DNA from: a virus
Direction: 5' to 3' (one strand)
Length of the DNA: 64,000 bases
Virus record (IMG/VR): IMGVR_UViG_3300042908_001045
Location: 1-64,000 of that record
In this document: piece by piece, positions 2,464 through 32,608 of the stretch
How positions within the stretch are numbered: position 1 is the first letter of the stretch
Layout: each line of letters opens with the position of its first letter
The notes under the pieces: generated by a model
The model's input: the letters and a program-made list of their open reading frames with translations, nothing else
What the model was told of the DNA's origin: nothing
Databases searched by the model: none
Position numbers and translations under genes: made by a program

Positions 2464-2469
2464 ATGTAT

Positions 2470-2560
2470 ACCCTGCTGCTTGCGAAGTCTCAGGTTTCAC
2501 CTAAGATACGCCTAAACGCAATCTGTTGATATGCTACAGGCATAGCAAGAGCGGGGTTTT
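2470..2560 (+). ncRNA. candidate ~90-nt structured small RNA
   Basis: 5' ACCCUGCU-G-CUUGC pairs with 3' GCAAG-AGCGGGGU, followed by a U tract; internal hairpins; dedicated promoter; GC-rich in AT-rich context. Confidence 0.5.
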
Positions 2561-5988: not shown

Positions 5989-6263
5989 GACTAGCACTTG
6001 CAATAGCCGTGTTTGCAAGTAATTCTATTTCATCGCAAACACAAGCACAAAGTAATGAATCATTGTTAATTCATAAATATAGTGAATTAATAGATAAAAA
6101 TCCACGAGACATAAACAGCTTATTAACCCGTGGTCTGCTATACCGAAAATTATATTTTTATGATGAGGCAATAGCTGACTTTAAAGCTGTGTTAAGAATT
6201 AACCCTAAGAATATCGAAGCAAAGAGAGAGCTAGATATCACTTACAAAGCTAAAAGAGGTTGA
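5955..6263 (+). CDS. TPR protein with N-terminal signal/TM segment
   Basis: GLGLALAIAVFAS then LLTRGLLYRKLYFYDEAIADFKAVLRINP. Confidence 0.75.
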   Translation: MESTMGQHTGLGLALAIAVFASNSISSQTQAQSNESLLIHKYSELIDKNPRDINSLLTRGLLYRKLYFYDEAIADFKAVLRINPKNIEAKRELDITYKAKRG

Positions 6264-6901
6264 TTGATTTTACTAAGAGCCATTACGTATTCATTTACGT
6301 AATGGTTTTTGATTTTAGACCTTAACCCAAAAACAGAAAATTTATTGATGACTCCAATTGGATAAGCTGGGCAAACATGATGATAATCTCCTTGCCACCA
6401 TCTTGGCAGGCTTGGGACAATATCACTTGAATTAACTATTCTATACGTTGGTATTTCTAAGTCAGAGTATAACTGGGCAAAACATTTGTTTCCTGGTTTG
6501 GGAGATCCAAAAGTAACACAAGTAAGATTAGTGTTGTAGTAAAAAATTTTAATACTAAGAGCAGCTAATGTCGCTATAGCGCCTCCTAAGCTATGCCCTG
6601 TTAAAAATATTGGACGTGGGTCATCTTTTATTAATTTAAATATTTGGTGTTTAACGGATAAAAAACATTCTAAAAATCCAGAATGAACTTTAGCATTCCC
6701 AGCTAATGGAAATGGTTCTAGTTTTAAATCAATGTTTTGTCTCCAGTCTGTGATTGATTCACTGCCAGTAAACGCTATAATAATTTTGTCAGGTTGCTCA
6801 TTTATTAGAACTTCGGTATCTGTTGAAGTTCCAATAATAGTTTTAGTCTCATAAGCTCTTGCACAATGCTGACACAGATCTAAAATATCACGGTAATTCA
6901 T
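6242..6901 (-). CDS. class 3 lipase (alpha/beta hydrolase)
   Basis: VHSGF, TGHSLGGAIATL, TFGSPKPGN, DIVPSLP motifs. Confidence 0.9.
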   Translation of the reverse strand: MNYRDILDLCQHCARAYETKTIIGTSTDTEVLINEQPDKIIIAFTGSESITDWRQNIDLKLEPFPLAGNAKVHSGFLECFLSVKHQIFKLIKDDPRPIFLTGHSLGGAIATLAALSIKIFYYNTNLTCVTFGSPKPGNKCFAQLYSDLEIPTYRIVNSSDIVPSLPRWWQGDYHHVCPAYPIGVINKFSVFGLRSKIKNHYVNEYVMALSKINQPLLAL

Positions 6902-6910
6902 ATCATAATT

Positions 6911-7534
6911 ATGTTCTCTAATGTTAAAATAGTTGCCTCTTTGGTTAATCCTATTGCATTAAACGATAACTGGACCCCTAGCTTTGATGGGATTTTGTCA
7001 TATCAAATTTTGTTTAACGCTAGAATGCTTAAACAAAATCCTAGCATCGACCAAGTAAAGTCGGGATTAGCAATAGTAAAAGAGAATATCCCATTAGAAA
7101 TTGGGTATTTATCCAACGAAAAAACAAGTTGGTATTATAAAGCTAGTAGTCCGCACTATGTATTAAACAAAAAGCACAATCTTGGTACTGGAGCTACAAA
7201 ACCATGGAGAGTAACTTCTGAACTTACATGGTACTGTCGTGCTGATTTAGAAAAAATAGAAGAACTACTAGAGGCTATTCAATCGATAGGCAAATACAGA
7301 ACGCTATCTTATTCTGGTGTTAAAAGCTGGTTAGTACAAGAATTAGTAGAAGATTGTCATGTTTGGAAAGACAATAGACTTAGTCGTCCGGTCCCTTGTA
7401 TTTATTTGCAAGATGACAAGCGTGTACTCATGTGTGATTACAGGATAAAAGAGTGGGGATGGAGATGTCCCCCGTATTTGCCAGATAATCAAGCACAATG
7501 TTATATGCCTTTACACAATATTTCCAATGAGTAA
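6911..7534 (+). CDS. csf3: Csf3 (Cas5, type IV-B)-like RAMP paralog, degenerate
   Basis: Colinear similarity to 13496..14194 (PIA..D...PS.DG.L.Y; WY...SSPHY; L.RP.P; CY.P.HN). Confidence 0.75.
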   Translation: MFSNVKIVASLVNPIALNDNWTPSFDGILSYQILFNARMLKQNPSIDQVKSGLAIVKENIPLEIGYLSNEKTSWYYKASSPHYVLNKKHNLGTGATKPWRVTSELTWYCRADLEKIEELLEAIQSIGKYRTLSYSGVKSWLVQELVEDCHVWKDNRLSRPVPCIYLQDDKRVLMCDYRIKEWGWRCPPYLPDNQAQCYMPLHNISNE

Positions 7535-8930
7535 CAACATTGCCATAGCAACAGGCTGGACAATTGCTTCTACCGTTTCTAAACACTTAGATCCAAGCAG
7601 TTATTTTGTCATAAAAGAGTTATATTCTTGTACTCCGGGAATTAATTTATTAGTTCGTAATTTACTAGCTAACACAACTATTCGTTATTTATTTTTGTTG
7701 AAAGCCAGTAAATATGATTTAAACTCTGGCTCTATAGATTGTGTCTTGGATTTTTTTGCTAAAGGAGTTCAACTGGGAAAGACAAATGGTGGGAGAACAG
7801 CATGGATAGTAGATTCAAAATACACGGCTTATATTGATGCTGAAATACCAAGTATTGCACTTGATAGTTTACGTATGTCTGTTCAAGTGTATGAATTTCA
7901 AGACATTTCCTCACTAGTAGAAAAAGTTAAATCTTTTAGTGATAAAACATCTAATCCTTGGGCTTCTCCAATGATATTTCCAGAACATAAGCCAGTTAAT
8001 CTAATAACTCCTGGGCAGTTAAATGGGCATAGAATAGAGTCAAGATTTATCCATGAAGCATGGGTCAAAATATTGCATAGAGTAAGAAGTAATGGCAAAA
8101 TTAGTGTAAGTTCTAGCGATATTTTATGGCAGGAGCTACTAAACGTTATTACTGTTATTACAGATGAGCCAGAAGATTTGATATTTCCAGAGCCTAACTA
8201 TTTGCCCATAGATAATTTTTTTATTGAAAAATATGTTTATCAAATGTTAAACGGTGGAGATAATTCTAGTAGTTATGGAACTAGAATGATTAGTCATTTT
8301 GGCATTAATCAAGTTGAATCTGTTGTTAATAATCTAAAAAACAACAGAATTTCTAACAGACTTGTAATTAATCTATGGGATGTTCAAAGTGATATAAAAT
8401 CACCGTCTCCACCATGCTTAAATCATGTTTGGGTTAAAATATATGACAATCAATTGTACATGACTGCAACTTTTCGCAGTAACGATATGTTTTCTGCATG
8501 GACTTCTAATGCCATGGGATTAAGAAAACTGCAATACCATATTTTCAATCAAATCAAAGAGCATTATTTAGATGTTAAAATGGGTTCTTTGTCTATTATT
8601 AGTGAAAGCGCTCACATTTATGAAGACTCTTGGACTGCTGCTGATGATATTATTCAGTGTCATTATCAACGTATTGTTAATAGGAAAGTTTTTGAAGACC
8701 CTGTTGGAAACTTTGTTATTCGCATTGATGATAATGCCATTTTAGTCACTCACGTAACTAAAGATGGTGAACAAGTAGCTAAATACACTGGCAAGTCAGC
8801 TACTTTGATTTGTAACAAAATTGTAGCTAACAATCCATCTATATTACCAGGACATGCGGCTTATCTTGGAATAGAATTAAATAGAGCTGAGAATAGCTTA
8901 CTCTTCGGCAAAACCTACTCTCAGTTCTAA
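7527..8930 (+). CDS. thyA: thymidylate synthase, cyanobacterial type (MtrA-like N-terminus, DUF4346 C-terminus)
   Basis: PPCL, FRSNDMFSAW.SN, SAHIYE; C-terminal DPVGNF...HAAYLGIEL. Confidence 0.85.
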   Translation: MSNNIAIATGWTIASTVSKHLDPSSYFVIKELYSCTPGINLLVRNLLANTTIRYLFLLKASKYDLNSGSIDCVLDFFAKGVQLGKTNGGRTAWIVDSKYTAYIDAEIPSIALDSLRMSVQVYEFQDISSLVEKVKSFSDKTSNPWASPMIFPEHKPVNLITPGQLNGHRIESRFIHEAWVKILHRVRSNGKISVSSSDILWQELLNVITVITDEPEDLIFPEPNYLPIDNFFIEKYVYQMLNGGDNSSSYGTRMISHFGINQVESVVNNLKNNRISNRLVINLWDVQSDIKSPSPPCLNHVWVKIYDNQLYMTATFRSNDMFSAWTSNAMGLRKLQYHIFNQIKEHYLDVKMGSLSIISESAHIYEDSWTAADDIIQCHYQRIVNRKVFEDPVGNFVIRIDDNAILVTHVTKDGEQVAKYTGKSATLICNKIVANNPSILPGHAAYLGIELNRAENSLLFGKTYSQF

Positions 8931-10130: not shown

Positions 10131-10451
10131 ATGAATGTTATCGTATTGACAGGAATAGCGTTGAAGCCAAAACAAATTGAATTGCCTTGGGGAAAACCAG
10201 GTATTGAATTTGTGATAAAAGTTCAGCCTACAAAGCCAGGAGAACTTGATTATTTCTTTAAAGTAATTGCATCTGAAGCTAGCAGCTTTAAGGAGCAAGA
10301 TACTGTCTTGATAGAAGGTTATCTTGATATAAATCAAGAGGAATTACCAAATGGCAATAAAAATAAAAAAGCCGTTATTTACGGCAAAAAAATTGAGGTG
10401 ATAAACACCAGCTACAAAGCAGAAAGTAGCTTAGATAGTATGCCATTTTAA
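10131..10451 (+). CDS. ssb: single-stranded DNA-binding protein-like (OB fold, acidic DSMPF tip)
   Basis: MNVIVLTG...VLIEGYL...C-terminal DSMPF. Confidence 0.65.
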   Translation: MNVIVLTGIALKPKQIELPWGKPGIEFVIKVQPTKPGELDYFFKVIASEASSFKEQDTVLIEGYLDINQEELPNGNKNKKAVIYGKKIEVINTSYKAESSLDSMPF

Positions 10452-10454
10452 AGC

Positions 10455-10485
10455 AATAACCTCCGAATTATACTCGGAGGTTATT
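10455..10485. terminator. bidirectional terminator ending the csf operon
   Basis: AATAACCTCCGA-attatac-TCGGAGGTTATT. Confidence 0.8.
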
Positions 10486-10490
10486 TTATT

Positions 10491-11627
10491 TTATTCCAGA
10501 AAGCTAGAAGTATTGGTTTTGCTTAAAAAATCAGATAAAGCGGTTAATTTAGTTTTTGCTCTATCAGACAAGATAGATGAATTCTCAGTAATTGTTAGAT
10601 ATTGACCTGCTTCTTGTCCAGAGCGATAGTAAACATCAACAGAAACCAATCCACATCCAGTGTTTCCTTTACCTCCTAGATAAGGTGCCAAAGCAAATTC
10701 AGACAGAGCATTAACGATAAAACCTTCCTCTACAGAAGTTATATCACTATCCCACCGGCTAAGAAGAGTGGAGCCTTTTTGGAGTAGCCAATCACCCATA
10801 ATCATCTGTTGGCTCTTAGATTCTTTTTTGTCTTTCTTTTTATCACTTGCTCCGAATAAAGATATCTGTCCTTGGTTTTCCTGTTCTAAATGTTTTGCAA
10901 GTTCAGAATCTTTTAAGCTATCTTGTCTGGTTTGCTGCCTATACGTTAAATATTGCGTATAAGGCTTTAGATCATTTTCTAAATTTGGCATCCATTTTTC
11001 AATAGCATTTCTGTATTTTTCTGTGCTAACAACTGAATTAATGTTGTTTAACCAGTTTTCAACTCGTGATTTTTCTAGTTCGTTTTTAGCTTCTACAATC
11101 TCTTTAACTGCTTCTAAACAATTGTAAGGAATAGCAGCAGGAAGAGTGTTGTAGATATATTCAGCTGTTTCTAAACAAACTAAATATGCTCCACCCACAT
11201 TGATGCGCCCTGGAATCATCTGTGATTCTTTAGAGCCAAATAGTCCAGTTGGCTTAGCAGTTCCCAGTAAAGAAATGCCAGGAAGATATGTTCTAATCTT
11301 TTTGTCTAGCTCTAAATCGTTGCCTGTAGAGCCGTCGATAAAACCGCCAGCAAACATAGTTTGATGGGTAGTAGGATTTACAGAATATCCACCTTCCTTG
11401 AGTTTATTTAAGAAAGAACTATTACCTATTCTTCTTAATATTTTGCCTCTTAAAGCATTGCCAGAATAGACAAATACTTCTGCACTATTGTTCTCTAAAT
11501 CTCTGACCTTTTCAACTCTTAAATTGCTCTGATTCCCAATAGCTTCACCAATATGCGATAAAGGTGATAATAACTTGATTACCAAATAAAACGTTATTTT
11601 ACTTCTATTTTCGTATGGATTATACAT
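10491..11627 (-). CDS. csf2: type IV CRISPR Cas7-family backbone Csf2
   Basis: LLSPLSHIGE, YSGNALRGKILRRIG, FAGG, LP.ISLLG, G-rich loop LGGKGNTGCG. Confidence 0.85.
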   Translation of the reverse strand: MYNPYENRSKITFYLVIKLLSPLSHIGEAIGNQSNLRVEKVRDLENNSAEVFVYSGNALRGKILRRIGNSSFLNKLKEGGYSVNPTTHQTMFAGGFIDGSTGNDLELDKKIRTYLPGISLLGTAKPTGLFGSKESQMIPGRINVGGAYLVCLETAEYIYNTLPAAIPYNCLEAVKEIVEAKNELEKSRVENWLNNINSVVSTEKYRNAIEKWMPNLENDLKPYTQYLTYRQQTRQDSLKDSELAKHLEQENQGQISLFGASDKKKDKKESKSQQMIMGDWLLQKGSTLLSRWDSDITSVEEGFIVNALSEFALAPYLGGKGNTGCGLVSVDVYYRSGQEAGQYLTITENSSILSDRAKTKLTALSDFLSKTNTSSFLE

Positions 11628-12117
11628 TATTTTCTTCCTCTTCTGTAAGTTTCAATTCTTTTTCTTCTTCATGTCTTAGCCTAACTAATGCAGCAATTAG
11701 ATGGGGACAATCTTTAATTTGTTTTAAGATATGTCTATCAGTAACTCCTTGCATCTTTAAAGAATGTAAAATCTCTTCCCATCCCATCCATTGAAGTTTT
11801 ACATTCTCTTGATCTTGCTTCAACTCAACAATTTCGTCTTTGTTGTTAATCCTAAGTATTTTTTGTTGTGGGTTTAGTATTCTAGAAAAAACTGATGGAT
11901 TTAAATGATTTACCACTAGTTTTTTGGAGAAATTTTCTATGAAATCTGATACACTCCCACTAGGAATAACAGCATTAGACAGAGATGATTGAAAATATTC
12001 CCATGTCTTGATTCCCATTGCAGGAGACTTGTCTTTGTCCCTGCATAAAAAGCACCAGTAACTTAATGCACTGGCTAATCCTATTTTTGAATCATGCGTC
12101 TGAAATCCGTGCCACAT
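11620..12117 (-). CDS. cas11: type IV-B small subunit (Cas11-like)
   Basis: Small helical protein between csf1 and csf2, overlapping both. Confidence 0.65.
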   Translation of the reverse strand: MWHGFQTHDSKIGLASALSYWCFLCRDKDKSPAMGIKTWEYFQSSLSNAVIPSGSVSDFIENFSKKLVVNHLNPSVFSRILNPQQKILRINNKDEIVELKQDQENVKLQWMGWEEILHSLKMQGVTDRHILKQIKDCPHLIAALVRLRHEEEKELKLTEEEENNV

Positions 12118-12751
12118 ATCCTAACAGCGCTCCATAAGAAGTTGCTCTTGTCTCTTTTATTTTAGACTCTAATTGAGTCCATTCGTCAATACATTTCATT
12201 AATCTATCTGATCTATATTCCCCTGACATAATTTCTGTTTTTGAAAAACCAAGTTGCATAAGTTTTTCAAAATAATTCAAAGACTCAATAAAGTCTAGTC
12301 TATTTAGCCAAACAATTTCCTCTTCTAGTAAAACTGGAAAGAAATTTCTGTCATAAGCTACATGTCTAAATGGATAAGTATGCTTTTGTCCAGAAGTTGC
12401 TAAACAAATAGAGAATGGTGGTTCTGGTGGATCTATTATCCATTTTTTAATTAATTCTCTAGTTGGAATTTTGGTCGCAACTGGCAAATTATCACCATGG
12501 GGAGATTCACCAAAAGTAAAGACGGGATATCTCTCGGTTGTAGATTCAAGCCAACTCCAACATCTAGCAAATACTTTACTCCATGCTTGTTTAGATTCAT
12601 TGTAATACCATGCAGAAGTAGTGATAGCAAAATTACACTTATCGCAAATTAAGTTAGAAAAAGGATTTTTAGCCCTAGATCTCGCGGTAAATTTGTCTCC
12701 TAGTACTAATTTTTTACTAGCAGATTCTCCACAGAAAAAACAAGTTGTCAT
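12092..12751 (-). CDS. csf1: type IV large subunit Csf1 (Cas8-like)
   Basis: CxxC...CxxC Zn finger and PPEPPF....SGQKH motif. Confidence 0.8.
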   Translation of the reverse strand: MTTCFFCGESASKKLVLGDKFTARSRAKNPFSNLICDKCNFAITTSAWYYNESKQAWSKVFARCWSWLESTTERYPVFTFGESPHGDNLPVATKIPTRELIKKWIIDPPEPPFSICLATSGQKHTYPFRHVAYDRNFFPVLLEEEIVWLNRLDFIESLNYFEKLMQLGFSKTEIMSGEYRSDRLMKCIDEWTQLESKIKETRATSYGALLGYVARISDA

Positions 12752-13494
12752 GTATACCTCCTAATCTCTGGAAACATTAATGCAAACGCTTCATATTTAT
12801 CAGGAAAATGTAATCTCAGATTAGCTATTCGCCCCCAATTAATACCGGTTGTTCCAATTGGTGGTCCATTTCTAACAGTCATTCTATCTATGTCATACAT
12901 AGCAGGATATTTCAAACTAAAGTTATCAATATATTGCCAAATAGCTTCAGTTCTCCAAAATCCAACAGGACTGCAAACGACTAAATCAGCTTTAGTTTTA
13001 TAAACTAATCCATGTTTTTTCAAGTACAATGCTCTTCCTTTACTTTCTTGAGATCTAATGCCCCAAGCATATCCTTTGATATTGTTGTTTTCTGTGTACT
13101 CATCAAGTGGATCATACATCAACTTTTGATTAATAATTTTGTCCAGCTTAGTATTCATTTTACCGTCTAACGGAATGCCGTAATCTACATAAAGATTAAG
13201 TAAAGAACGAACTGGACAAAGTTCAACAACGTTTAATCCTTGCTCTTTATAATCTTCAATTAACTCTATACAATCTTCCCATTCAGCTAAGTGTCCTTGA
13301 TTGACCCAAACTAATGGGCATTGTGGATAGACAGTCGTAATCAAATGTGCGGCAACTAGACTGTCTTTGCCACCGGAGATTGAGCAGTAAACTTGAAAAT
13401 CGCACTCTATTAGCCACTGCTCAATAACTGTTTTAGCTTTACTAATAACAGATTTTAACCATGGTGCTTTAACGCCAGTTCCGGTAGATAACAT
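12748..13494 (-). CDS. cysH: CysH-like PAPS-reductase-family protein (type IV-B associated)
   Basis: PP-loop SISGGKDS, GIRSQES..R, SP...W...IWQYI...L.YP.MYD; no ECGLH motif. Confidence 0.85.
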   Translation of the reverse strand: MLSTGTGVKAPWLKSVISKAKTVIEQWLIECDFQVYCSISGGKDSLVAAHLITTVYPQCPLVWVNQGHLAEWEDCIELIEDYKEQGLNVVELCPVRSLLNLYVDYGIPLDGKMNTKLDKIINQKLMYDPLDEYTENNNIKGYAWGIRSQESKGRALYLKKHGLVYKTKADLVVCSPVGFWRTEAIWQYIDNFSLKYPAMYDIDRMTVRNGPPIGTTGINWGRIANLRLHFPDKYEAFALMFPEIRRYT

Positions 13495-13495
13495 T

Positions 13496-14194
13496 TTATA
13501 TTTTTACCGTATTATGCTTGGGCAAATAACACATTCTGCGGTTAGATAATAGCCAACCAGGTGGTTTAATACTCCAAACCAATTTTGGACAATCAACAAA
13601 TCTTGATGATACATTTTCATAAAATTCTTGTGCGTATTCTACAGGAATAGGGCGAGCTAATTTGTCTTTTCTGAAAAGATGATAATCCTGGTCTATAAAA
13701 CAAACTTCCCATTGAGAAACCTGCCCATATCCGTAGCTAGTTTTTTTCCCTAGTGCTTTACACGAAGTAATAATTTCCATAATTTCTTTGGCATTACCTA
13801 CCGCAAACCAATCAATTCTAGAAACTGTTTTAACTGGTAATGGTAAATCGTAAGATTTAGTATGTCCTACCGAAACATCTACTTTAGCTTTCTTTTTACC
13901 CCAATTACAGTTAGACTCCTGATAATCCCATCTTTTCCTGTATTTAGCTATTACAGCTTCAGAATATTGGTAATGAGGTGAACTGACAGCCCAATACCAA
14001 TCATCATTGCTTAGTTTAATTTTTAGTAATGGCAAATCAACATCAATTAAATCCGCTTCAGTTGGATTGGGATTAATAGGTATTCCCTGTTTTAACAAAA
14101 AAAAGTACTGCAATAATCCATCTAATGATGGACTATAGTTATCGTAAACAGCGATAGGCGACTGCAAATGTGCCGTTATTTGTAAATTTTCCAT
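13496..14194 (-). CDS. csf3: type IV CRISPR Cas5-family Csf3
   Basis: LQITAHLQSPIA, LDGLL, KRWD, KSYDLP, WFAVGN, LGKKTSYGYGQV.W, RPIP. Confidence 0.85.
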   Translation of the reverse strand: MENLQITAHLQSPIAVYDNYSPSLDGLLQYFFLLKQGIPINPNPTEADLIDVDLPLLKIKLSNDDWYWAVSSPHYQYSEAVIAKYRKRWDYQESNCNWGKKKAKVDVSVGHTKSYDLPLPVKTVSRIDWFAVGNAKEIMEIITSCKALGKKTSYGYGQVSQWEVCFIDQDYHLFRKDKLARPIPVEYAQEFYENVSSRFVDCPKLVWSIKPPGWLLSNRRMCYLPKHNTVKI

Positions 14195-14297
14195 GTTCTT
14201 TAATTATTTTTTTAACTAAAACATATTTTAACCAAAAAGTCAATATATGTCTTAATACTGGTTGCTAAAATTAGCTGCAAAATGCAATAAATAAGTC

Positions 14298-14334
14298 TAA
14301 GCACTATAGAACATTTTTTATTCTATAGTGCTTA
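14298..14334. terminator. 14-bp perfect hairpin upstream of csf3, probable terminator of 14338..14664
   Basis: TAAGCACTATAGAA...TTCTATAGTGCTTA. Confidence 0.65.
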
Positions 14335-14337
14335 TAA

Positions 14338-14664
14338 TCAGGTGCTAGCTTGTACTTTTTTAGATTCTTTACTTCTTTGTTTCCATTCTTTATTTACCAT
14401 TTCTAAATAATCTGGCAGCACGCTAGTCCACAAAATACCATATATAGCAAAACCTATCATTGCAGCAGTAGTTGAGTAGTCTTGATTGATTGGAATATGG
14501 GTTCTTATTCCTATGGATTTGTTATGGACTTGTATACCATTTTCGTCTAAAGACAATTCATCAAATATATCTAGTAATTGATTCATAATCTTTAGTTGCT
14601 CAAATATTTCCTCAATTGGTTTGAACGTCAAATCACACAAATATTTTGATATTTCTACTGACAT
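14338..14664 (-). CDS. hypothetical protein
   Basis: 108-aa ORF, GGAGAG RBS. Confidence 0.6.
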   Translation of the reverse strand: MSVEISKYLCDLTFKPIEEIFEQLKIMNQLLDIFDELSLDENGIQVHNKSIGIRTHIPINQDYSTTAAMIGFAIYGILWTSVLPDYLEMVNKEWKQRSKESKKVQAST

Positions 14665-14917: not shown

Positions 14918-15505
14918 ATGAAAAAAATAACAATATCAGCCATAGAGACGTGGGATGTTAAACGTCCTATTCCTTACGATAAGAACGCAAAATTACATCC
15001 TGACTCACAAGTAGAGCAAATAGCTAATAGCATTACTGAGTTTGAATTCTTAGACCCAATTGCTGTTGATGAGAAAGGAGTAATTTTAGAAGGACATGGA
15101 CGATTATTAGCTGCTCAAAAATTAAATTTAGCTACAGTTCCTGTTATTATCATTTCTGGACTGTCTAAAGAGCAAAAAATAGCGTATAGACTTGCTCATA
15201 ATAAAATCTCACATAATTCCGGATTTAACCCAGAATTACTTCAAGATGAGTTATCTTTTCTAGATGACAATAATTTTGACATTGAACTAACAGGCTTTAC
15301 TTTAGACGATTTGAACTTTGGAGAGGACCTATTGGATTGGGAAGAGCCATTTAAACAAGAATCTATTGAGCCAGAAGAAACAGTACTTAAATTAAAAATT
15401 GCAACGGAGTACAAACAACCATTGCTAGATGCATTAGACATAACAAAACCCAATCCATCTGCAAATGAATTGGGTGATGCTTTAATTAATTACTTGCAAC
15501 TTTAG
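14918..15505 (+). CDS. ParB/Srx N-terminal domain protein
   Basis: PYDKNAKLH..QVEQIANSI.EF.F.DPI.VD...ILEGHGRLLAA. Confidence 0.85.
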   Translation: MKKITISAIETWDVKRPIPYDKNAKLHPDSQVEQIANSITEFEFLDPIAVDEKGVILEGHGRLLAAQKLNLATVPVIIISGLSKEQKIAYRLAHNKISHNSGFNPELLQDELSFLDDNNFDIELTGFTLDDLNFGEDLLDWEEPFKQESIEPEETVLKLKIATEYKQPLLDALDITKPNPSANELGDALINYLQL

Positions 15506-16097: not shown

Positions 16098-16544
16098 CTA
16101 ATAAATTTCTTCAAACAACTTTATACTAGACTCTCTGTCTAATACAATAGTTTTTACGCAAAGTTTTAAGAATTTGCGTTGCCTATCTATTGATAGGTTG
16201 TTAAATTTTACTCCATTCAAGGAGTTTATTCTAGACAACTTTGTCAAGGTCAATTTACCTAAAACAAAGTTGTTTAGAGTGGTAACAAAATCAATACTAG
16301 AATTTAAGTCTAGTACCTTTTTAGTATTGATTTCCTTTAGCATAAATATTGCCTGTATAGGCACACCCAGAAACATGCTTTCAATGGATTGAGATTGTTT
16401 TAGAACATCCCATCTCCATTTAGTTGAATCGTAAAATGTAATTTCTTTGTTCTTAATTCCATAAACTAAACTCTCTACAGTATATTCCGTAGTATTATAA
16501 AGAGCTTGCCTGGCTTTAATCTTGATTTCTTCTTCTATTTCCAT
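16098..16544 (-). CDS. degenerate DUF262 (GmrS-like) domain protein
   Basis: YNTTEYTVESLV, W...QS.SIES.FLGVPI..IF, LNG.KF.NL...QRKF; YQR and DGxQR motifs missing. Confidence 0.65.
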   Translation of the reverse strand: MEIEEEIKIKARQALYNTTEYTVESLVYGIKNKEITFYDSTKWRWDVLKQSQSIESMFLGVPIQAIFMLKEINTKKVLDLNSSIDFVTTLNNFVLGKLTLTKLSRINSLNGVKFNNLSIDRQRKFLKLCVKTIVLDRESSIKLFEEIY

Positions 16545-16685: not shown

Positions 16686-19600
16686 ATGTTTAACGCAGCT
16701 ACCGCTAATCCAGTATTTTACAGAACATATTCTCGCCATACAGAGTATGGACGCGAATCATGGGAACAAGTTTGTTCTAGAACGTTAAAAGCGTTGGAAA
16801 AACTAGGTAAATTAAACACAGAAGAAATTGCATTAATTACTAAAATGCAAAGCAGTATGAAATCATTACCTAGTGGTAGATGGCTTTGGGTTGGCGGCAC
16901 AAAATGGCTGGAAAAGCCAGCTAACTACTCTGGAGCCTATAACTGCACGTCAACTAACTTAACCAGCTGGAACGCCTTTGCTTTAATGATGGATCTAGCT
17001 ATGATGGGCTGCGGAACAGGAGCAGTCATTGAGGAAAAATACTTTAGCAGATTACCGAAAATTACTAACAGTATTAACATCGATGTTTTTGGTGAACCAG
17101 GAGATGTATCACCAGAAGAAAGACAAGAAGAAACGTCCTGGACTGCCGCAGGTAACGGAAAATTTGTTATGTATGTTGGTGACAGTCGCAACGGATGGGT
17201 TGAAGCATATAAATTATTACTGGAAGCGGCTTCTAATACTATGTATCAAGGAGAGATAAGCATAAGTGTTTGTTTATCTCATGTTCGTCCAAATGGTGAA
17301 CCACTAAAATCATTTGGTGGAGTTGCTAACCCTGTTAAAATTAAAGACCTATTTGTGCGTTGCTCTGCAATACTTAATAAAGCAGTTGGTAGGCAGCTGT
17401 CATCCATAGAATGTTGTTTGCTAATTGATGAAGCAGCAAGCACTATAGTGGCTGGAAATATTAGGCGGTGTTTACCTGGCAATGCGTTAGTGCATACAGA
17501 GTCAGGCTTAGTACCTATCGCTAAGATAAGAATAGGAGATCGTGTTCTTACCAGCAAAGGATTTTACCCTGTAACTAACTTCTTTGATCAAGGTGAGCAA
17601 TCTCTTTGCAGAATCAAAACTCAAGACGGTAGTTTTGAGTGTACAGCAGAACACAAGATTGCTGTGTTAACAGATGTCTATGGCAACTACAAAATGGTTA
17701 AAGCCAAAGACTTGAAGCAAGGTGATAGATTGATACGTGTTCTAGAAGCCACAGAATTAATACCAGTTAAATTTGTGGACATTGAGTTTGATGTACGAAC
17801 TGCTCCCACTTACGACATAGAAGTTGCCACTGTGCATGAATTTGTGTGCGAAGGCATCTTAGTTTCAAATAGCGCCGGCATGCGCCAGTTCACTTCTAGT
17901 GATAACGTAGCTGCTAACGCTAAAGCAAATCTATGGGAGCAAACACCAACTGGAGAGTGGAGAATAGATCCAGAGAAAGATGCTTTGCGCATGGCAAATC
18001 ACACCAGAGTTTTTCACCAAAAGCCTACTTATAAGGAGGTGTTTGATTCAGTAACAAGTCAATATTGGAGTGGTGAAGGAGCAATTCAATGGGCTGGTGA
18101 AGCTGTCGCCAGAGCAAATGCAGATTTATTGATTACCCAAAAGTTAAAAGCAGAGTTCTTGAATGCTTATGAGAATGGTGGAGCCAAGGAATGGATAAGA
18201 AAAAATTATCCAAGCATGCCACATGCGGAGATAGAACATAGAGTAAGTACATATGGATTAAATCCGTGTGTTACTGCTGATACATGGATTCACACAGAAA
18301 AAGGAGCGAGGCAAGTTAAAGACTTGATAGGCAAACAAACCAGTGTTTACGTTGATGGAGAATTATTTAGCACCACACCCGAAGGTTTTTGGCTAACAGG
18401 AATCAAGCCTGTGCTAAAAGTGATTACTCAAGAAGGATATGAGTTGCGTTTAACTGACAATCATCAGCTACTCAAAGTTACTGCCCAGACTCAACGTAAA
18501 CAATATTCTGAGTGGACTGAAGCTAAAGATTTAAGTCCAGGACATTATATTTCAGTCCATAACCATCGTGAAGCACAGCATTGGGACAGTTTTGGAACTT
18601 TTGACGAAGGCTGGTTAATTGGCAATTTAATTGGCAATGGCAGCATCTCGTCAACACAGTGGGGGAAAACAGCACTTTTGCGATACTGGGAAGATTCTCA
18701 AGATGAGATGGGAAGACATGCTGTTGCTCTACTTGAAAAAACTGTTGATTATGCTGGAACTACAGAATCTGGACATTACTATGAACAGCAGAATTATCGA
18801 GTAGTCCAATCAACAGGATTAGCTAGATTAGCTGCTAGTTATGACGTTACGCTAGAGAACAAAATGCCAACAGGTAAAATCGAAGAAGCAAGTTATGAAT
18901 TTTACCGTGGTTTTTTACGTGGCTTATTTGATGCTGATGGGAGCGTGCAAGGAAATCAACAAAAAGGCATTAGCATCAGATTGTCACAAAGCAATCTAGA
19001 GACTTTGAAAATAGTCCAAAGAATGCTGGCGAGATTAGGTATTATCTCAACAATTTATCAAAAAGCACAACATGAACTTGTTATCAGTAATGATAATATC
19101 TGTGTCTTTCAAAACATTATTGGATTCCAAAAACCTGACAAAGCTAATCGCTTGAATGAATTAATTACCAGATATGAGCCAAAATTAAATCGTGAGCGAT
19201 TTGTAGTTAAAATCAAAGAGATTATACCCGATGGAGTAGAAGCAGTTTTTGACTGTACTGTTCCGGGAGTTTCTCGATTTGATGGTAATGGAATTGTCGC
19301 CCATAATTGTGGTGAAATTATTGGTAGCAATTTCCATTGTGTTAGTGGTGACACGCTACTAATTACCAAAGATGGATTACACGCAATCAAAGATGTTGTA
19401 GGATGCGATGTTGAGATTTGGAATGGTAGGAATTGGAGTCAAGTACAGCCATTTAAAACTGGCAGTTCTCGCGTTCTTTATCGTGTACGATTTGCGGATG
19501 GTACGTATTTAGATGCTACCGAATATCATAGATTCTTTGTTAAGGATAGGTTTGGCAAAGAATACAAAGAAGTACAGACAAAAGACTTAATGGATGCAAG

Positions 19601-31504: not shown

Positions 31505-32608
31505 TTATTGTCTCAACTGAATAGGCATTAGTAATCTTAAATTATCTGGATCTCCCATTTTAGACAAGATAACCGGTGTTAGTTCTTGATTCATTTGAAG
31601 TCTCACCTCTTCTCCATTAAGAGATTTTAATGCTTCTAAGATGTATTTTGCATTAAAACAAATTACAATTGGGCTTCCGGAGAAATCACAATTTAATGTG
31701 TCAATAGCGCTGCCAACGCCTTGATTTTCAGTTGTTAATTCTACTTTTTGTTCATCTGGCACAAAAGTCATTTTCACAATATTATTTTTTGAGTCAGACA
31801 TAATATTAACCCGTTCCAGTGTTTCTATTAGCTGCTTTCTAGAAATACAACATTCTCTCTCAAATTGTCTTGGTATTAATTGAGAATAGTTTGGATAATT
31901 TCCCTGTAATGTTCTGAAGACAACAGTAGTGTTGTCTGATTGAATTTTGGCTATTGACTCTGAAAATGTTAACTGAAATACGCTATAAGGCTTTACAATT
32001 TTAATTATTTCATGTAAAACCTTTGCTGGAATAGTGCATGCGTTTATAGTTTCTTTGCTTTCGTAAGAAAATACTGATAGCCTGTGTCCATCGGTTGTGG
32101 CTAAGCACATTTTTTCGTTTTTATACTGAAAATTTACTCCAGTTAATACTTGTTTAGTTTCATCACTAGAAGCAGAGAAAAGAACGGATTTTAATCCTTC
32201 TAGCAACTTTTCAGCAGATAGCGATATTTCTTCACTTTCCTCTAAAGATGGAAAAGTTGCATACTCTGCTGAGGAAACACCATTAATTTTGAATTTACCA
32301 GTTTTGTGCTTAATGTTTAATGTTGTCTCGTCTGTGTTTACTTTAATCTCTAAATCACAGTTAGGTATTTTGTTGATGCTGTCTACTAACGCTCTAGCGG
32401 AAACACAGATAGAGCCTTCTTCTATTATTTCTGCTGCAATTTCTGTTTTAATCCATATAGATAAATCAGACCCTGTTATAATTAAATTGTCTTCCTTAGC
32501 TTCTACTAAGAAACAACCTAAGATAGGGTGGGTAGGACGAGCTGAAATTGCTCTAGCGACCTGATTTATTGCATTAGAAAAACTAGCTTGGTTTACGAAA
32601 AATTTCAT
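31505..32608 (-). CDS. dnaN: DNA polymerase III beta sliding clamp
   Basis: ISARPTHPIL, ATTDGHRL, GNYPNY.QLIP, FNAKY, LLMPIQLR. Confidence 0.95.
   Translation of the reverse strand: MKFFVNQASFSNAINQVARAISARPTHPILGCFLVEAKEDNLIITGSDLSIWIKTEIAAEIIEEGSICVSARALVDSINKIPNCDLEIKVNTDETTLNIKHKTGKFKINGVSSAEYATFPSLEESEEISLSAEKLLEGLKSVLFSASSDETKQVLTGVNFQYKNEKMCLATTDGHRLSVFSYESKETINACTIPAKVLHEIIKIVKPYSVFQLTFSESIAKIQSDNTTVVFRTLQGNYPNYSQLIPRQFERECCISRKQLIETLERVNIMSDSKNNIVKMTFVPDEQKVELTTENQGVGSAIDTLNCDFSGSPIVICFNAKYILEALKSLNGEEVRLQMNQELTPVILSKMGDPDNLRLLMPIQLRQ

What the first reader, a model, noticed from the sequence alone, without database searches (positions are those of the whole stretch)
10491..14194. 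Array-less type IV-B CRISPR effector operon carried by a cyanophage
Seen: five tightly overlapping genes, csf3-cysH-csf1-cas11-csf2, bounded by hairpins at 10455-10485 and 14298-14334. No cas1/2, cas6, dinG or repeat array appears in the window. Established: this gene set defines subtype IV-B, which occurs on mobile elements and whose guide RNA and function are unresolved. Inference: the phage uses a Cascade-like ribonucleoprotein for something other than adaptive immunity. Options include sequestering host crRNAs (anti-CRISPR), binding a phage-encoded RNA (candidate at 2470-2560), or delivering the CysH-like adenylating enzyme to a nucleic-acid target.
Basis: partly seen in the sequence, partly recalled or inferred. 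Interest (0 to 1): 0.85.

Follow-up and report, generated by a model that had tools for sequence, protein, structure and literature searches.

The report
Array-less type IV-B operon, cyanophage
A complete 86-kb lake phage, probably of filamentous cyanobacteria, carries a real type IV-B CRISPR-like protein complex with no CRISPR array; this kind of system is already known but its function is not, and a conserved sliding-clamp-docking-like peptide gives a concrete way to test it.

Summary
On the minus strand, 14194-10491 encodes csf3, a cysH-like PP-loop enzyme, csf1, cas11 and csf2. The operon is bounded by two hairpin terminators. All five proteins match type IV profiles. The complete 86,305-bp phage genome has no CRISPR array, mini-array, cas6 or cas1.

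"Cyanophage" is an inference from 69% terminase identity to Cylindrospermopsis phages.

The module is not unique. At least 61 IMG/VR viral contigs carry relatives, usually in the order cas11-csf2-csf3-cysH-csf1. They sit in otherwise mostly unrelated phage genomes. About a third add a Cas6 and a few have arrays. This scan has also noted phage-borne IV-B many times on other DNA.

The proposed guide RNA at 2467-2560 is an Rfam DUF3800-VIII motif. It is absent from five related genomes (four at least 90% complete), so it is not a conserved partner.

The most useful lead is QISLF in a predicted disordered loop of Csf2, which resembles the beta-clamp-binding consensus. Across relatives the motif sits either in that Csf2 loop or at the Csf1 C-terminus, almost never in both. 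The phage also encodes its own beta clamp.

Function remains unproven. This is a variant of a known kind, of moderate interest.

The parts
14298..14334 (-). Hairpin terminator of the upstream gene (14338-14664); marks the 5' boundary of the operon's transcription unit
   Evidence: 16-pair stem followed by a T-rich tail
14195..14297 (-). Intergenic leader with weak sigma-70-like promoter matches (AAGACA..TAAAAT at 14253-14225)
   Evidence: 9 of 12 matches; promoter matches are not enriched over shuffles, so this is weak. No conserved counterpart in related loci
13496..14194 (-). csf3 (Cas5 of type IV), 232 aa
   Evidence: PADLOC Csf3_0_IV 3.8e-42, full length; TIGR03116 4.8e-13, below its cut-off
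12748..13494 (-). cysH-like PP-loop enzyme (CasCysH), 248 aa; the SGGKDS motif is encoded at 13360-13377
   Evidence: Pfam PAPS_reduct 1.6e-12. AF2 model with pLDDT 88; best PDB matches are PAPS reductases at TM 0.64-0.70. SGGKDS is invariant in 15 class-A homologues. No cysteine after residue 174 (sequence)
12092..12751 (-). csf1 (small Cas8-like large subunit), 219 aa, with an N-terminal four-cysteine zinc-ribbon-like motif
   Evidence: PADLOC Csf1_0_IV 1.9e-23. C4, C7, C36 and C39 are invariant in 20 sequences. No C-terminal QLSLF tail, unlike some relatives
11620..12117 (-). cas11 (type IV small subunit), 165 aa
   Evidence: PADLOC typeIV_Cas11 4.2e-10 and 3.8e-9; homologue adjacent to csf2 in 59 loci
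10491..11627 (-). csf2 (Cas7 backbone), 378 aa; invariant D43 in the loop that aligns with the putative catalytic loop of JS623 Csf2
   Evidence: PADLOC Csf2_0_IV 1.6e-39. AF2 model best matches type IV-A Csf2 chains 8s35/8rc2 (E 1e-12), then Csm3. The profile matches 7jhy Csf2 at 2.7e-5. Invariant residues are listed
10854..10868 (-). Codons for QISLF (Csf2 residues 254-258), a beta-clamp-binding-like short motif in a predicted disordered loop
   Evidence: Translation. The loop 249-276 has pLDDT below 50. The motif is present at the same place in 60 of 119 homologues against 1.2% of shuffles. It is near mutually exclusive with a Csf1 C-terminal QLSLF
10455..10485 (.). Bidirectional hairpin terminator between csf2 and the convergent SSB-like gene 10131-10451
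   Evidence: 12-pair stem with T-runs on both sides
6911..7534 (+). Second, unlinked Csf3/Cas5 paralogue (207 aa); it overlaps by 8 nt the start of a thymidylate-synthase-like gene with a pterin-binding domain (7527-8930)
   Evidence: PADLOC Csf3_0_IV 3e-26. 29% identity to the operon's Csf3, E 3e-29. Retained at 55-98% identity in 7 clusters. Neighbour's Pfam matches
31505..32608 (-). Phage-encoded beta sliding clamp (DnaN homologue, 367 aa); a candidate docking partner, inferred only
   Evidence: Three PF00712 matches in one 369-aa frame, best 1.1e-26. Homologues in two other IV-B-bearing phage genomes

Best explanation
What it is (near certain, about 0.95): a complete, intact subtype IV-B CRISPR-Cas effector module made of Csf3, a CysH-like PP-loop enzyme, Csf1, Cas11 and Csf2. 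It is transcribed as one unit inside the DNA-replication and nucleotide-metabolism region of a complete 86-kb tailed phage with inverted terminal repeats. The phage is related to Cylindrospermopsis and Nodularia cyanophages, and its genome holds no array, Cas6 or adaptation genes.

How it most likely works (inferred, about 0.35-0.4):
1. Csf2 and Cas11 form a filament on an RNA that does not come from a phage CRISPR array. The filament is capped by Csf3 and Csf1.
2. The complex is tethered to a beta sliding clamp on replicating DNA through the QISLF peptide in the disordered Csf2 loop. The clamp could be the phage's own DnaN (31505-32608) or the host's.
3. There the CysH-like enzyme uses ATP to adenylate a nucleic acid or a nucleotide-linked substrate. 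It has an intact PP-loop and lacks the C-terminal catalytic cysteine of PAPS reductases.

The net effect would be a modification or marking activity, or a blocking activity, at replication forks that helps the phage against host defence or competitors. It would not be spacer-based immunity.

Shown: gene identities, folds, motif conservation, absence of array, Cas6 and Cas1, and presence of a phage clamp. Inferred: RNP assembly, clamp docking, CysH chemistry and the benefit to the phage.
For: Identity:
- PADLOC type IV profiles match all four Csf/Cas11 proteins, and Pfam PAPS_reduct matches the fifth.
- The Csf2 model matches solved type IV-A Csf2 and then Csm3. The CysH-like model matches PAPS reductases, then the PP-loop enzymes TtuA/NcsA and GMP synthetase ATPPase.

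Phage and completeness:
- The record is a virus record, 100% complete, with inverted terminal repeats.
- It encodes a terminase, major tail protein, tail protein J and DnaB.
- TerL is 69% identical to Cylindrospermopsis phages.

No array, Cas6 or Cas1 in the genome.

Evidence of selection:
- The five families are the only ones co-located throughout 61 viral loci at 40-60% identity.
- They sit in otherwise mostly unrelated genomes. Four of five compared genomes share only 9-11 ORFs with this one, and 5-6 of those are the IV-B genes.

PP-loop: SGGKDS is invariant.

Clamp lead:
- QISLF lies in a loop with pLDDT below 50.
- Q.[SD]LF sits at the same position in 60 of 119 homologues, against 1.2% of shuffles.
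- Placement is complementary: Csf2 loop only in 17 loci, Csf1 C-terminus only in 10, both in 1, neither in 4. Fisher p = 1.4e-4, not corrected for phylogeny.
- The consensus QLxLF is taken from PMC4549789.
- The phage encodes a DnaN.

Context:
- Neighbours are SSB-like genes, a ParB-like protein, a ThyA-like gene and a ribonucleotide reductase.
- Published biochemistry shows that a IV-B Csf2-Cas11 filament assembles on heterogeneous non-CRISPR RNA (PMC7937560).
Against: - No experiment or complex prediction supports clamp binding.
- QISLF has I, not L, at position 2, and the motif is internal rather than C-terminal in this phage.
- Only 3 of 6 fully examined IV-B phages encode their own clamp.
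- The loop could instead contact Cas11, a neighbouring Csf2 subunit or RNA.
- The mutual-exclusion count is partly phylogenetically structured. The Csf1-tail group is largely one clade in the quick tree.
- About a third of related loci carry a Cas6 and a few carry arrays. This argues that at least some relatives do use repeat-derived RNAs.
- The substrate of the CysH-like enzyme is unknown. Koonin and co-workers describe it as an inactivated PAPS-reductase derivative (PMC11656645).
Confidence: 0.4

Rival explanations
1. crRNA sponge (anti-CRISPR). The Csf complex soaks up host crRNAs, or small RNAs generally. This starves the CRISPR-rich cyanobacterial host's type I and type III effectors during infection.
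For: There is no array or Cas6 in the phage. 20 of 61 related phage loci carry a Cas6, and no array was found in most of them within the sequence held. Such a Cas6 could act on host pre-crRNA. Phage arrays in relatives have repeats ending in GTTGAAAC. The idea has been proposed in print for IV-B (PMC7038947, PMC7937560).
Against: It explains neither the universal CysH-like partner with its invariant PP-loop nor the clamp-like motif that moves between Csf2 and Csf1. Pinilla-Redondo et al. themselves judged so complex an anti-CRISPR unlikely. The JS623 complex did not prefer co-expressed crRNAs.
Confidence: 0.2
2. Guide-dependent silencing with borrowed guides. The complex loads host-processed crRNAs, or crRNAs from a co-resident element. 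It then binds matching DNA or RNA to repress competitors, as type IV-A does, and the CysH-like protein replaces DinG as the effector.
For: Relatives have CRISPR arrays 1-5 kb from the module (L039-L042) and Cas6 genes inside it. Duplicated Csf3 caps could recognise different 5' handles. Type IV-A works by nuclease-free repression (PMC11656645).
Against: This genome has no array, mini-array, solitary repeat or Cas6. In L040-L042 the arrays adjoin a Cas12 V-U2/V-F-like gene and may belong to it. No conserved non-coding element flanks the operon.
Confidence: 0.2
3. Decaying or selfish passenger cassette with no function for the phage.
For: No function has been shown for any IV-B system. Gene order is shuffled among relatives.
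Against: All five ORFs are intact and three of the four junctions overlap. Dozens of residues are invariant across 40-60% identical homologues. The set is retained in unrelated phage backbones. The exact protein recurs on 38 contigs, and at least 16 lake metagenome runs from many studies hold 90% or more of the stretch's sampled words.
Confidence: 0.04

Closest known systems
Subtype IV-B CRISPR-Cas of Mycobacterium sp. JS623 megaplasmid (Csf complex, PDB 7JHY; PMC7937560)
   Same: It has the same five-component set (Csf1, Cas11, Csf2, Csf3, CysH-like) with no array, Cas6, helicase or adaptation genes. The Csf2 profile matches the 7jhy chain at 2.7e-5. An invariant Asp (D43) lies in the loop that aligns, within two residues, with the loop carrying the putative catalytic Asp42.
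   Different: It is carried by a tailed phage rather than a plasmid. Sequence similarity is very low (single-sequence E 0.18). The gene order is csf3-cysH-csf1-cas11-csf2. It has an extra unlinked Csf3 paralogue and a QISLF motif in the Csf2 loop.
Type IV-B of Bathyarchaeia 'Fuxiviridae' viruses (PMC10848311)
   Same: It is a virus-borne IV-B with CysH-like next to Csf3 and no adaptation module.
   Different: Fuxivirus has a mini-array of two repeats and is an archaeal virus. Here no mini-array exists and the host is probably a cyanobacterium.
Type IV-A CRISPR-Cas (Csf complex with DinG; PDB 8s35, 8rc2, 7xg1)
   Same: These are the best structural matches for the Csf2 model (E 1e-12). They share Csf1, Csf2 and Csf3 homology.
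   Different: IV-A has DinG, Cas6/Csf5 and an array and lacks Cas11 and CysH. None of DinG, Cas6 or an array was found here.
PAPS reductase CysH and PP-loop ATP pyrophosphatases (TtuA/NcsA, GMP synthetase ATPPase)
   Same: The fold matches at TM 0.64-0.70 to 6vpu, 2o8v and 1sur. The G-x-R-x-x-E-S-x-x-R region and the SGGKDS PP-loop are present.
   Different: There is no cysteine after residue 174, so the C-terminal catalytic Cys of CysH is missing. The canonical SGGKDS motif resembles ATP pyrophosphatases more than PAPS reductases (PMC8175902). Four conserved cysteines (C59, C75, C93, C174) have no assigned role.
Beta-clamp-binding short motifs (consensus QLxLF/QLSLF) of polymerases, transposases and other clamp clients (PMC4549789)
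   Same: QISLF matches positions 1, 3, 4 and 5 of QLSLF. It sits in a disordered segment, as such motifs do. Relatives end Csf1 in an exact QLSLF.
   Different: The motif is internal here rather than C-terminal, has I for L at position 2, and binding is untested.

Membership tests
Subtype IV-B CRISPR-Cas | Csf2 (type IV Cas7 backbone) | tested here: met
   PADLOC Csf2_0_IV 1.6e-39 over residues 11-368; fold matches type IV Csf2 chains
Subtype IV-B CRISPR-Cas | Csf3 (type IV Cas5) | tested here: met
   PADLOC Csf3_0_IV 3.8e-42, full length
Subtype IV-B CRISPR-Cas | Csf1 (small large-subunit signature protein) | tested here: met
   PADLOC Csf1_0_IV 1.9e-23; four invariant N-terminal cysteines
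Subtype IV-B CRISPR-Cas | Cas11-like small subunit | tested here: met
   PADLOC typeIV_Cas11 4.2e-10 and 3.8e-9
Subtype IV-B CRISPR-Cas | cysH-like gene associated with the cas genes | tested here: met
   It lies between csf3 and csf1 with a 1-nt gap and a 4-nt overlap; PAPS_reduct 1.6e-12; fold
Subtype IV-B CRISPR-Cas | No DinG/RecD helicase in the locus, no Cas6, no adaptation module, no CRISPR array | tested here: met
   Locus content. Whole genome: no array, no Rfam CRISPR-DR, no Cas6 by three Pfam models or tblastn, no Cas1. Cas2 and DinG were not searched by profile
Subtype IV-B CRISPR-Cas | The proteins assemble into an RNA-containing Csf complex | not testable with these tools
NCBIfam equivalogs TIGR03114/03115/03116 (Csf1/Csf2/Csf3) | Score above the curated cut-off | tested here: not met
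   36.2, 31.4 and 49.3 bits against cut-offs of 140, 130 and 140. The proteins lie outside these narrow curated families although they are significant homologues
Bona fide PAPS reductase (CysH) | C-terminal catalytic cysteine | tested here: not met
   No cysteine after residue 174 of 248 (sequence). TIGR00434 scores 39.5 bits against a cut-off of 165
PP-loop ATP pyrophosphatase superfamily | SGGxDS PP-loop motif on an adenine nucleotide alpha-hydrolase fold | tested here: met
   SGGKDS at residues 40-45, invariant in 15 homologues; fold. ATP use itself is not testable here
Beta-clamp client proteins | QLxLF-type motif in a disordered, accessible segment | tested here: inconclusive
   QISLF at residues 254-258 in a loop with pLDDT below 50; conserved and complementary with Csf1 tails. 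I stands for L at position 2, and binding is untested

The most novel reading that the evidence does not exclude
Phage-borne type IV-B complexes are not guide-directed immune effectors. They are clamp-tethered replication-fork machines. The complex must carry one beta-clamp-docking peptide, either in the Csf2 thumb loop (as here) or on the Csf1 tail. It rides on the sliding clamp of replicating DNA and brings the CysH-like PP-loop enzyme to nascent nucleic acid for an ATP-dependent modification. This would give the first mechanistic handle on the function of subtype IV-B.
Probability: 0.3. Interest if true: 0.85.

Novelty: new variant of a known kind. Interest (0 to 1): 0.55.

Why it matters
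Subtype IV-B is the one widespread CRISPR-Cas subtype with no known guide, target or activity (PMC7038947, PMC8175902, PMC11656645). This window shows a clean, complete example in a fully assembled phage that recurs in lake metagenomes. It belongs to a large phage-borne clade that offers natural experiments:
- modules with and without Cas6;
- modules with and without arrays;
- two classes of CysH-like enzyme;
- duplicated Cas5 caps;
- a clamp-binding-like peptide that switches between two subunits.

If the clamp link holds, IV-B would be tied to DNA replication rather than to surveillance. It would then become testable with simple binding and mutant assays. If it fails, the operon is still a well-defined new example of a known, unexplained system.

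Tried and rejected
Tools not available:
- Complex prediction (Csf3 + Csf1 + CysH-like) was not available, so nothing was folded.

Searches that found nothing:
- blastn of the operon and tblastn of Csf2 against 50,697 deposited phage records gave no match. The tool notes that records of this genome or a near one may be left out.
- The guide-RNA candidate at 2467-2560 is an Rfam DUF3800-VIII motif just over threshold. It is followed by a T5orf172/GIY-YIG-like gene and is absent from five related IV-B phage genomes. It is rejected as a conserved partner.
- blastn of the operon's flanks against 61 related loci found no conserved non-coding element. There was only one 20-nt chance-level hit.
- No solitary repeat like the relatives' CRISPR repeats scored above a shuffled control. 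The only mini-array hits (at least 24 of 28 matches) fell inside large repetitive ORFs.
- No paper in the searchable library combines 'type IV-B' with 'cyanophage' or with 'sliding clamp'.

Weak or incomplete results:
- Two freshwater metatranscriptome runs hold short near-identical contigs over csf2 and cas11 (10930-11216, 11364-11630, 11585-11766). Contigs cannot show transcription, strand or ends, and DNA carry-over is possible. Stretches without cover mean nothing.
- The careful tree did not finish, so a quick tree was used for orientation only.
- Host assignment by CRISPR spacers was not attempted.


Full report
**Observation.** ORF listing shows five consecutive minus-strand genes at exactly the reported coordinates: 14194-13496 (232 aa), 13494-12748 (248 aa), 12751-12092 (219 aa), 12117-11620 (165 aa) and 11627-10491 (378 aa). 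The junctions are a 1-nt gap followed by overlaps of 4, 26 and 8 nt.

PADLOC type IV models identify the five genes as follows:
- Csf3/Cas5: 3.8e-42.
- Csf1: 1.9e-23.
- Cas11: 4.2e-10.
- Csf2/Cas7: 1.6e-39.

The second gene matches Pfam PAPS_reduct at 1.6e-12. The NCBIfam Csf equivalogs also hit, but far below their curated cut-offs, so the proteins are divergent members. Both hairpins are real and terminator-like. One is a 16-pair stem at 14334-14298, just after the upstream gene. The other is a 12-pair bidirectional stem at 10455-10485, between csf2 and a convergent SSB-like gene.

**The genome.** The window is the first 64 kb of an 86,305-bp IMG/VR virus record rated complete, with inverted terminal repeats. 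The repeats are about 880 bp at 87% identity and so are not an assembly echo. The genome encodes a large terminase, major tail protein, tail protein J, DnaB helicase and an FtsK-like protein. The terminase is 69% identical to those of Cylindrospermopsis raciborskii phages RM-2018a and Cr-LKS4. The next best matches are Nodularia phages at 31%. At least 16 lake-water metagenome runs from many studies hold 90% or more of the stretch's sampled words. "Cyanophage" is therefore a reasonable inference, not a demonstrated host.

**Is it really array-less?** Yes, for the whole genome.
- k-mer scans for spaced repeats found only tandem coding repeats.
- A mismatch-tolerant mini-array scan found only hits inside large repetitive ORFs.
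- Rfam found no CRISPR-DR family.
- Nothing resembles the CRISPR repeats of related phages above a shuffled control.
- Three Cas6 Pfam models, a tblastn with a relative's Cas6, and Cas1 all found nothing.

A second Csf3/Cas5 paralogue lies at 6911-7534 on the plus strand (PADLOC Csf3_0_IV 3e-26). It is 29% identical to the operon's Csf3 (E 3e-29). It overlaps by 8 nt the start of a thymidylate-synthase-like gene with a pterin-binding domain. It is retained at 55-98% identity in a handful of close relatives, so it is probably under selection.

**Relatives.** A homology search found 291 Csf2 relatives, many on contigs of 40-125 kb. A profile-guided scan of IMG/VR returned 61 viral loci.
- Their usual gene order is cas11-csf2-csf3-cysH-csf1. 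The window's order is a cyclic permutation of this.
- An unbiased clustering of all ORFs in these loci shows that the five IV-B families are the only ones co-located throughout.
- Four of five compared genomes share only 9-11 ORFs with this phage, and 5-6 of those are the IV-B genes. The fifth is a distant backbone relative with 39 shared ORFs. The module therefore persists in, or moves between, otherwise mostly unrelated phages.
- Two classes of CysH-like gene occur. Class A (about 248 aa) has SGGKDS, as here. Class B (about 231 aa) has SWGKDS. The classes swap between nearly identical Csf2 backgrounds.
- 20 of 61 loci also encode a Cas6 (PF09559, 7e-51).
- A few loci have true CRISPR arrays of 37-nt repeats 1-5 kb away. 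In L040-L042 the arrays adjoin a Cas12 V-U2/V-F-like gene and may belong to it.

**The proposed phage RNA.** The segment 2467-2560 matches Rfam DUF3800-VIII just above threshold. The next gene is a T5orf172/GIY-YIG-like protein. The motif is absent from five genomes that carry related IV-B modules, four of them at least 90% complete. It is not a conserved partner of the module. No conserved non-coding element flanks the operon either.

**Proteins.**
- The CysH-like model (pLDDT 88) best matches PAPS reductases at TM 0.64-0.70. It then matches the tRNA thiolases TtuA/NcsA, GMP synthetase ATPPase and FAD synthase.
- Its SGGKDS PP-loop is invariant and no cysteine follows residue 174. This agrees with the published view that CasCysH looks like an ATP alpha-hydrolase rather than a sulfonucleotide reductase (PMC8175902).
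- Four cysteines are conserved (C59, C75, C93, C174) and have no assigned role.
- The Csf2 model (pLDDT 78) best matches type IV-A Csf2 chains and then Csm3.
- The Csf2 profile matches the solved IV-B Csf2 (7jhy) at 2.7e-5. An invariant Asp43 lies within two residues of the loop position that carries the putative catalytic Asp42.

**A functional lead.** Earlier notes of this scan reported a C-terminal QLSLF on Csf1 in other phage IV-B modules, so I tested this here.
- The window's Csf1 has no such tail. Its Csf2 carries QISLF at residues 254-258, inside a loop of 249-276 that the model leaves disordered.
- Q.[SD]LF occurs at this same position in 60 of 119 full-length homologues, against 1.2% of shuffled sequences.
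- Among non-redundant loci with both proteins, the motif is in the Csf2 loop only in 17, at the Csf1 C-terminus only in 10, in both in 1, and in neither in 4. Three of those 4 are distant outgroup members. Fisher p is 1.4e-4, not corrected for shared ancestry.
- QLxLF/QLSLF is the established bacterial beta-clamp-binding consensus (PMC4549789).
- The phage encodes its own beta clamp at 31505-32608, as do two of five other IV-B phages examined. It has no family A or family B polymerase.
- The operon lies among SSB-like, ParB-like, ThyA-like and ribonucleotide reductase genes.
- No paper in the searchable library links type IV-B to the sliding clamp.

**Interpretation.** The identity of the module is secure. 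For mechanism, I favour (about 0.35-0.4) an RNA-scaffolded Csf filament that is not programmed by a phage array. It would dock on a sliding clamp on replicating DNA and bring the PP-loop enzyme to its substrate.

The crRNA-sponge reading and the borrowed-guide reading each keep about 0.2. Cas6 and arrays in relatives show that parts of this clade do handle repeat-derived RNA. A functionless remnant is unlikely, given the intact genes, the overlapping junctions and the deep conservation. None of these readings has experimental support.

**Novelty.** Type IV systems on "some phages and prophages" and the array-less, CysH-associated IV-B are in print (PMC7038947, PMC11656645). A virus-borne IV-B has been described in archaeal viruses (PMC10848311). 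No paper in the searchable library pairs "type IV-B" with "cyanophage". This scan has noted phage-borne IV-B many times on other DNA.

The window is therefore a variant of a known kind. It differs in its phage-clade sequence divergence, permuted gene order, unlinked second Cas5 and clamp-like motif in Csf2. Its value lies in the testable lead and in the comparative series, not in rarity.

Noticed in passing
window 6911-7534 (+) and 7527-8930 (+): A second Csf3/Cas5 paralogue overlaps by 8 nt the start of a 467-aa thymidylate-synthase-like protein with a C-terminal PterinBD-DUF4346 domain. That protein could be a nucleotide hydroxymethylase-type modification enzyme. In the data examined, the pairing occurs only in this phage and its close relatives.
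   Followed up: partly
window 2467-2560 (+): An Rfam DUF3800-VIII RNA motif (40.3 bits against a gathering score of 40.2) lies upstream of a T5orf172/MUG113 GIY-YIG-like gene rather than a DUF3800 gene. It is absent from five related IV-B phage genomes.
   Followed up: partly
window 31505-32608 (-): The phage encodes a bacterial-type beta sliding clamp (three DNA_pol3_beta domains). No family A or family B DNA polymerase was found in the genome, so it presumably works with a host polymerase or an unrecognised one.
   Followed up: partly
genome ends: 1-873 and the reverse complement of the last ~880 bases (beyond the window): The inverted terminal repeats are long (~880 bp) but only 87% identical, with 127 nt exact at the tips. 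Paralogous genes lie at the two ends (149-1690 against 85209-86144).
   Followed up: partly
window 16686-22487 (+): A 1933-aa ribonucleotide-reductase-like ORF appears to be interrupted by several intein-like insertions (Hint-type and homing-endonuclease-like stretches in the translation). This was not checked with profiles.
   Followed up: no
window 14918-15505 (+) and 16098-16544 (-): Just upstream of the operon lie two small stand-alone proteins. One is a ParB-N-like protein that matches the N-terminal part of a PADLOC type II methyltransferase model (1.7e-30). The other is a DUF262/NsnA-like protein (1.2e-13). Both are ParB/Srx-type domains without partner catalytic domains.
   Followed up: no
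L041 12176-16000, L042 and L040 (related viral contigs): A 622-aa Cas12 V-U2/V-F-like gene (PADLOC Cas12u2 9e-58) is followed by one or two CRISPR arrays of 37-nt repeats (8 and 13-27 repeats). It lies 1-5 kb downstream of the IV-B module in a sub-clade of these phages.
   Followed up: partly
L039 / G005 71478-71910 and 77864-78326: The closest backbone relative (39 shared ORFs) has a 7-repeat CRISPR array about 0.9 kb downstream of csf1 with no adjacent Cas12 or Cas6. It has a second small array 6 kb further on.
   Followed up: no
L007 11922-12506 and 19 other related loci: A PF09559-type Cas6 (7e-51) is embedded in or beside the IV-B module in 20 of 61 related phage loci. It is often next to a Coq4-like 230-255-aa protein, and no array was found in most of those loci within the sequence held.
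   Followed up: partly
window 12748-13494 (-), residues C59, C75, C93, C174: Four cysteines are invariant or nearly invariant in class-A CysH-like proteins of the phage clade. They could form a metal, Fe-S or persulfide site, as in the TtuA/NcsA thiolases that are among the structural neighbours.
   Followed up: no
window 6242-6901 (-): A class 3 lipase-domain protein (Pfam Lipase_3, 5.7e-29) is encoded in a phage genome, next to the Csf3 paralogue.
   Followed up: no
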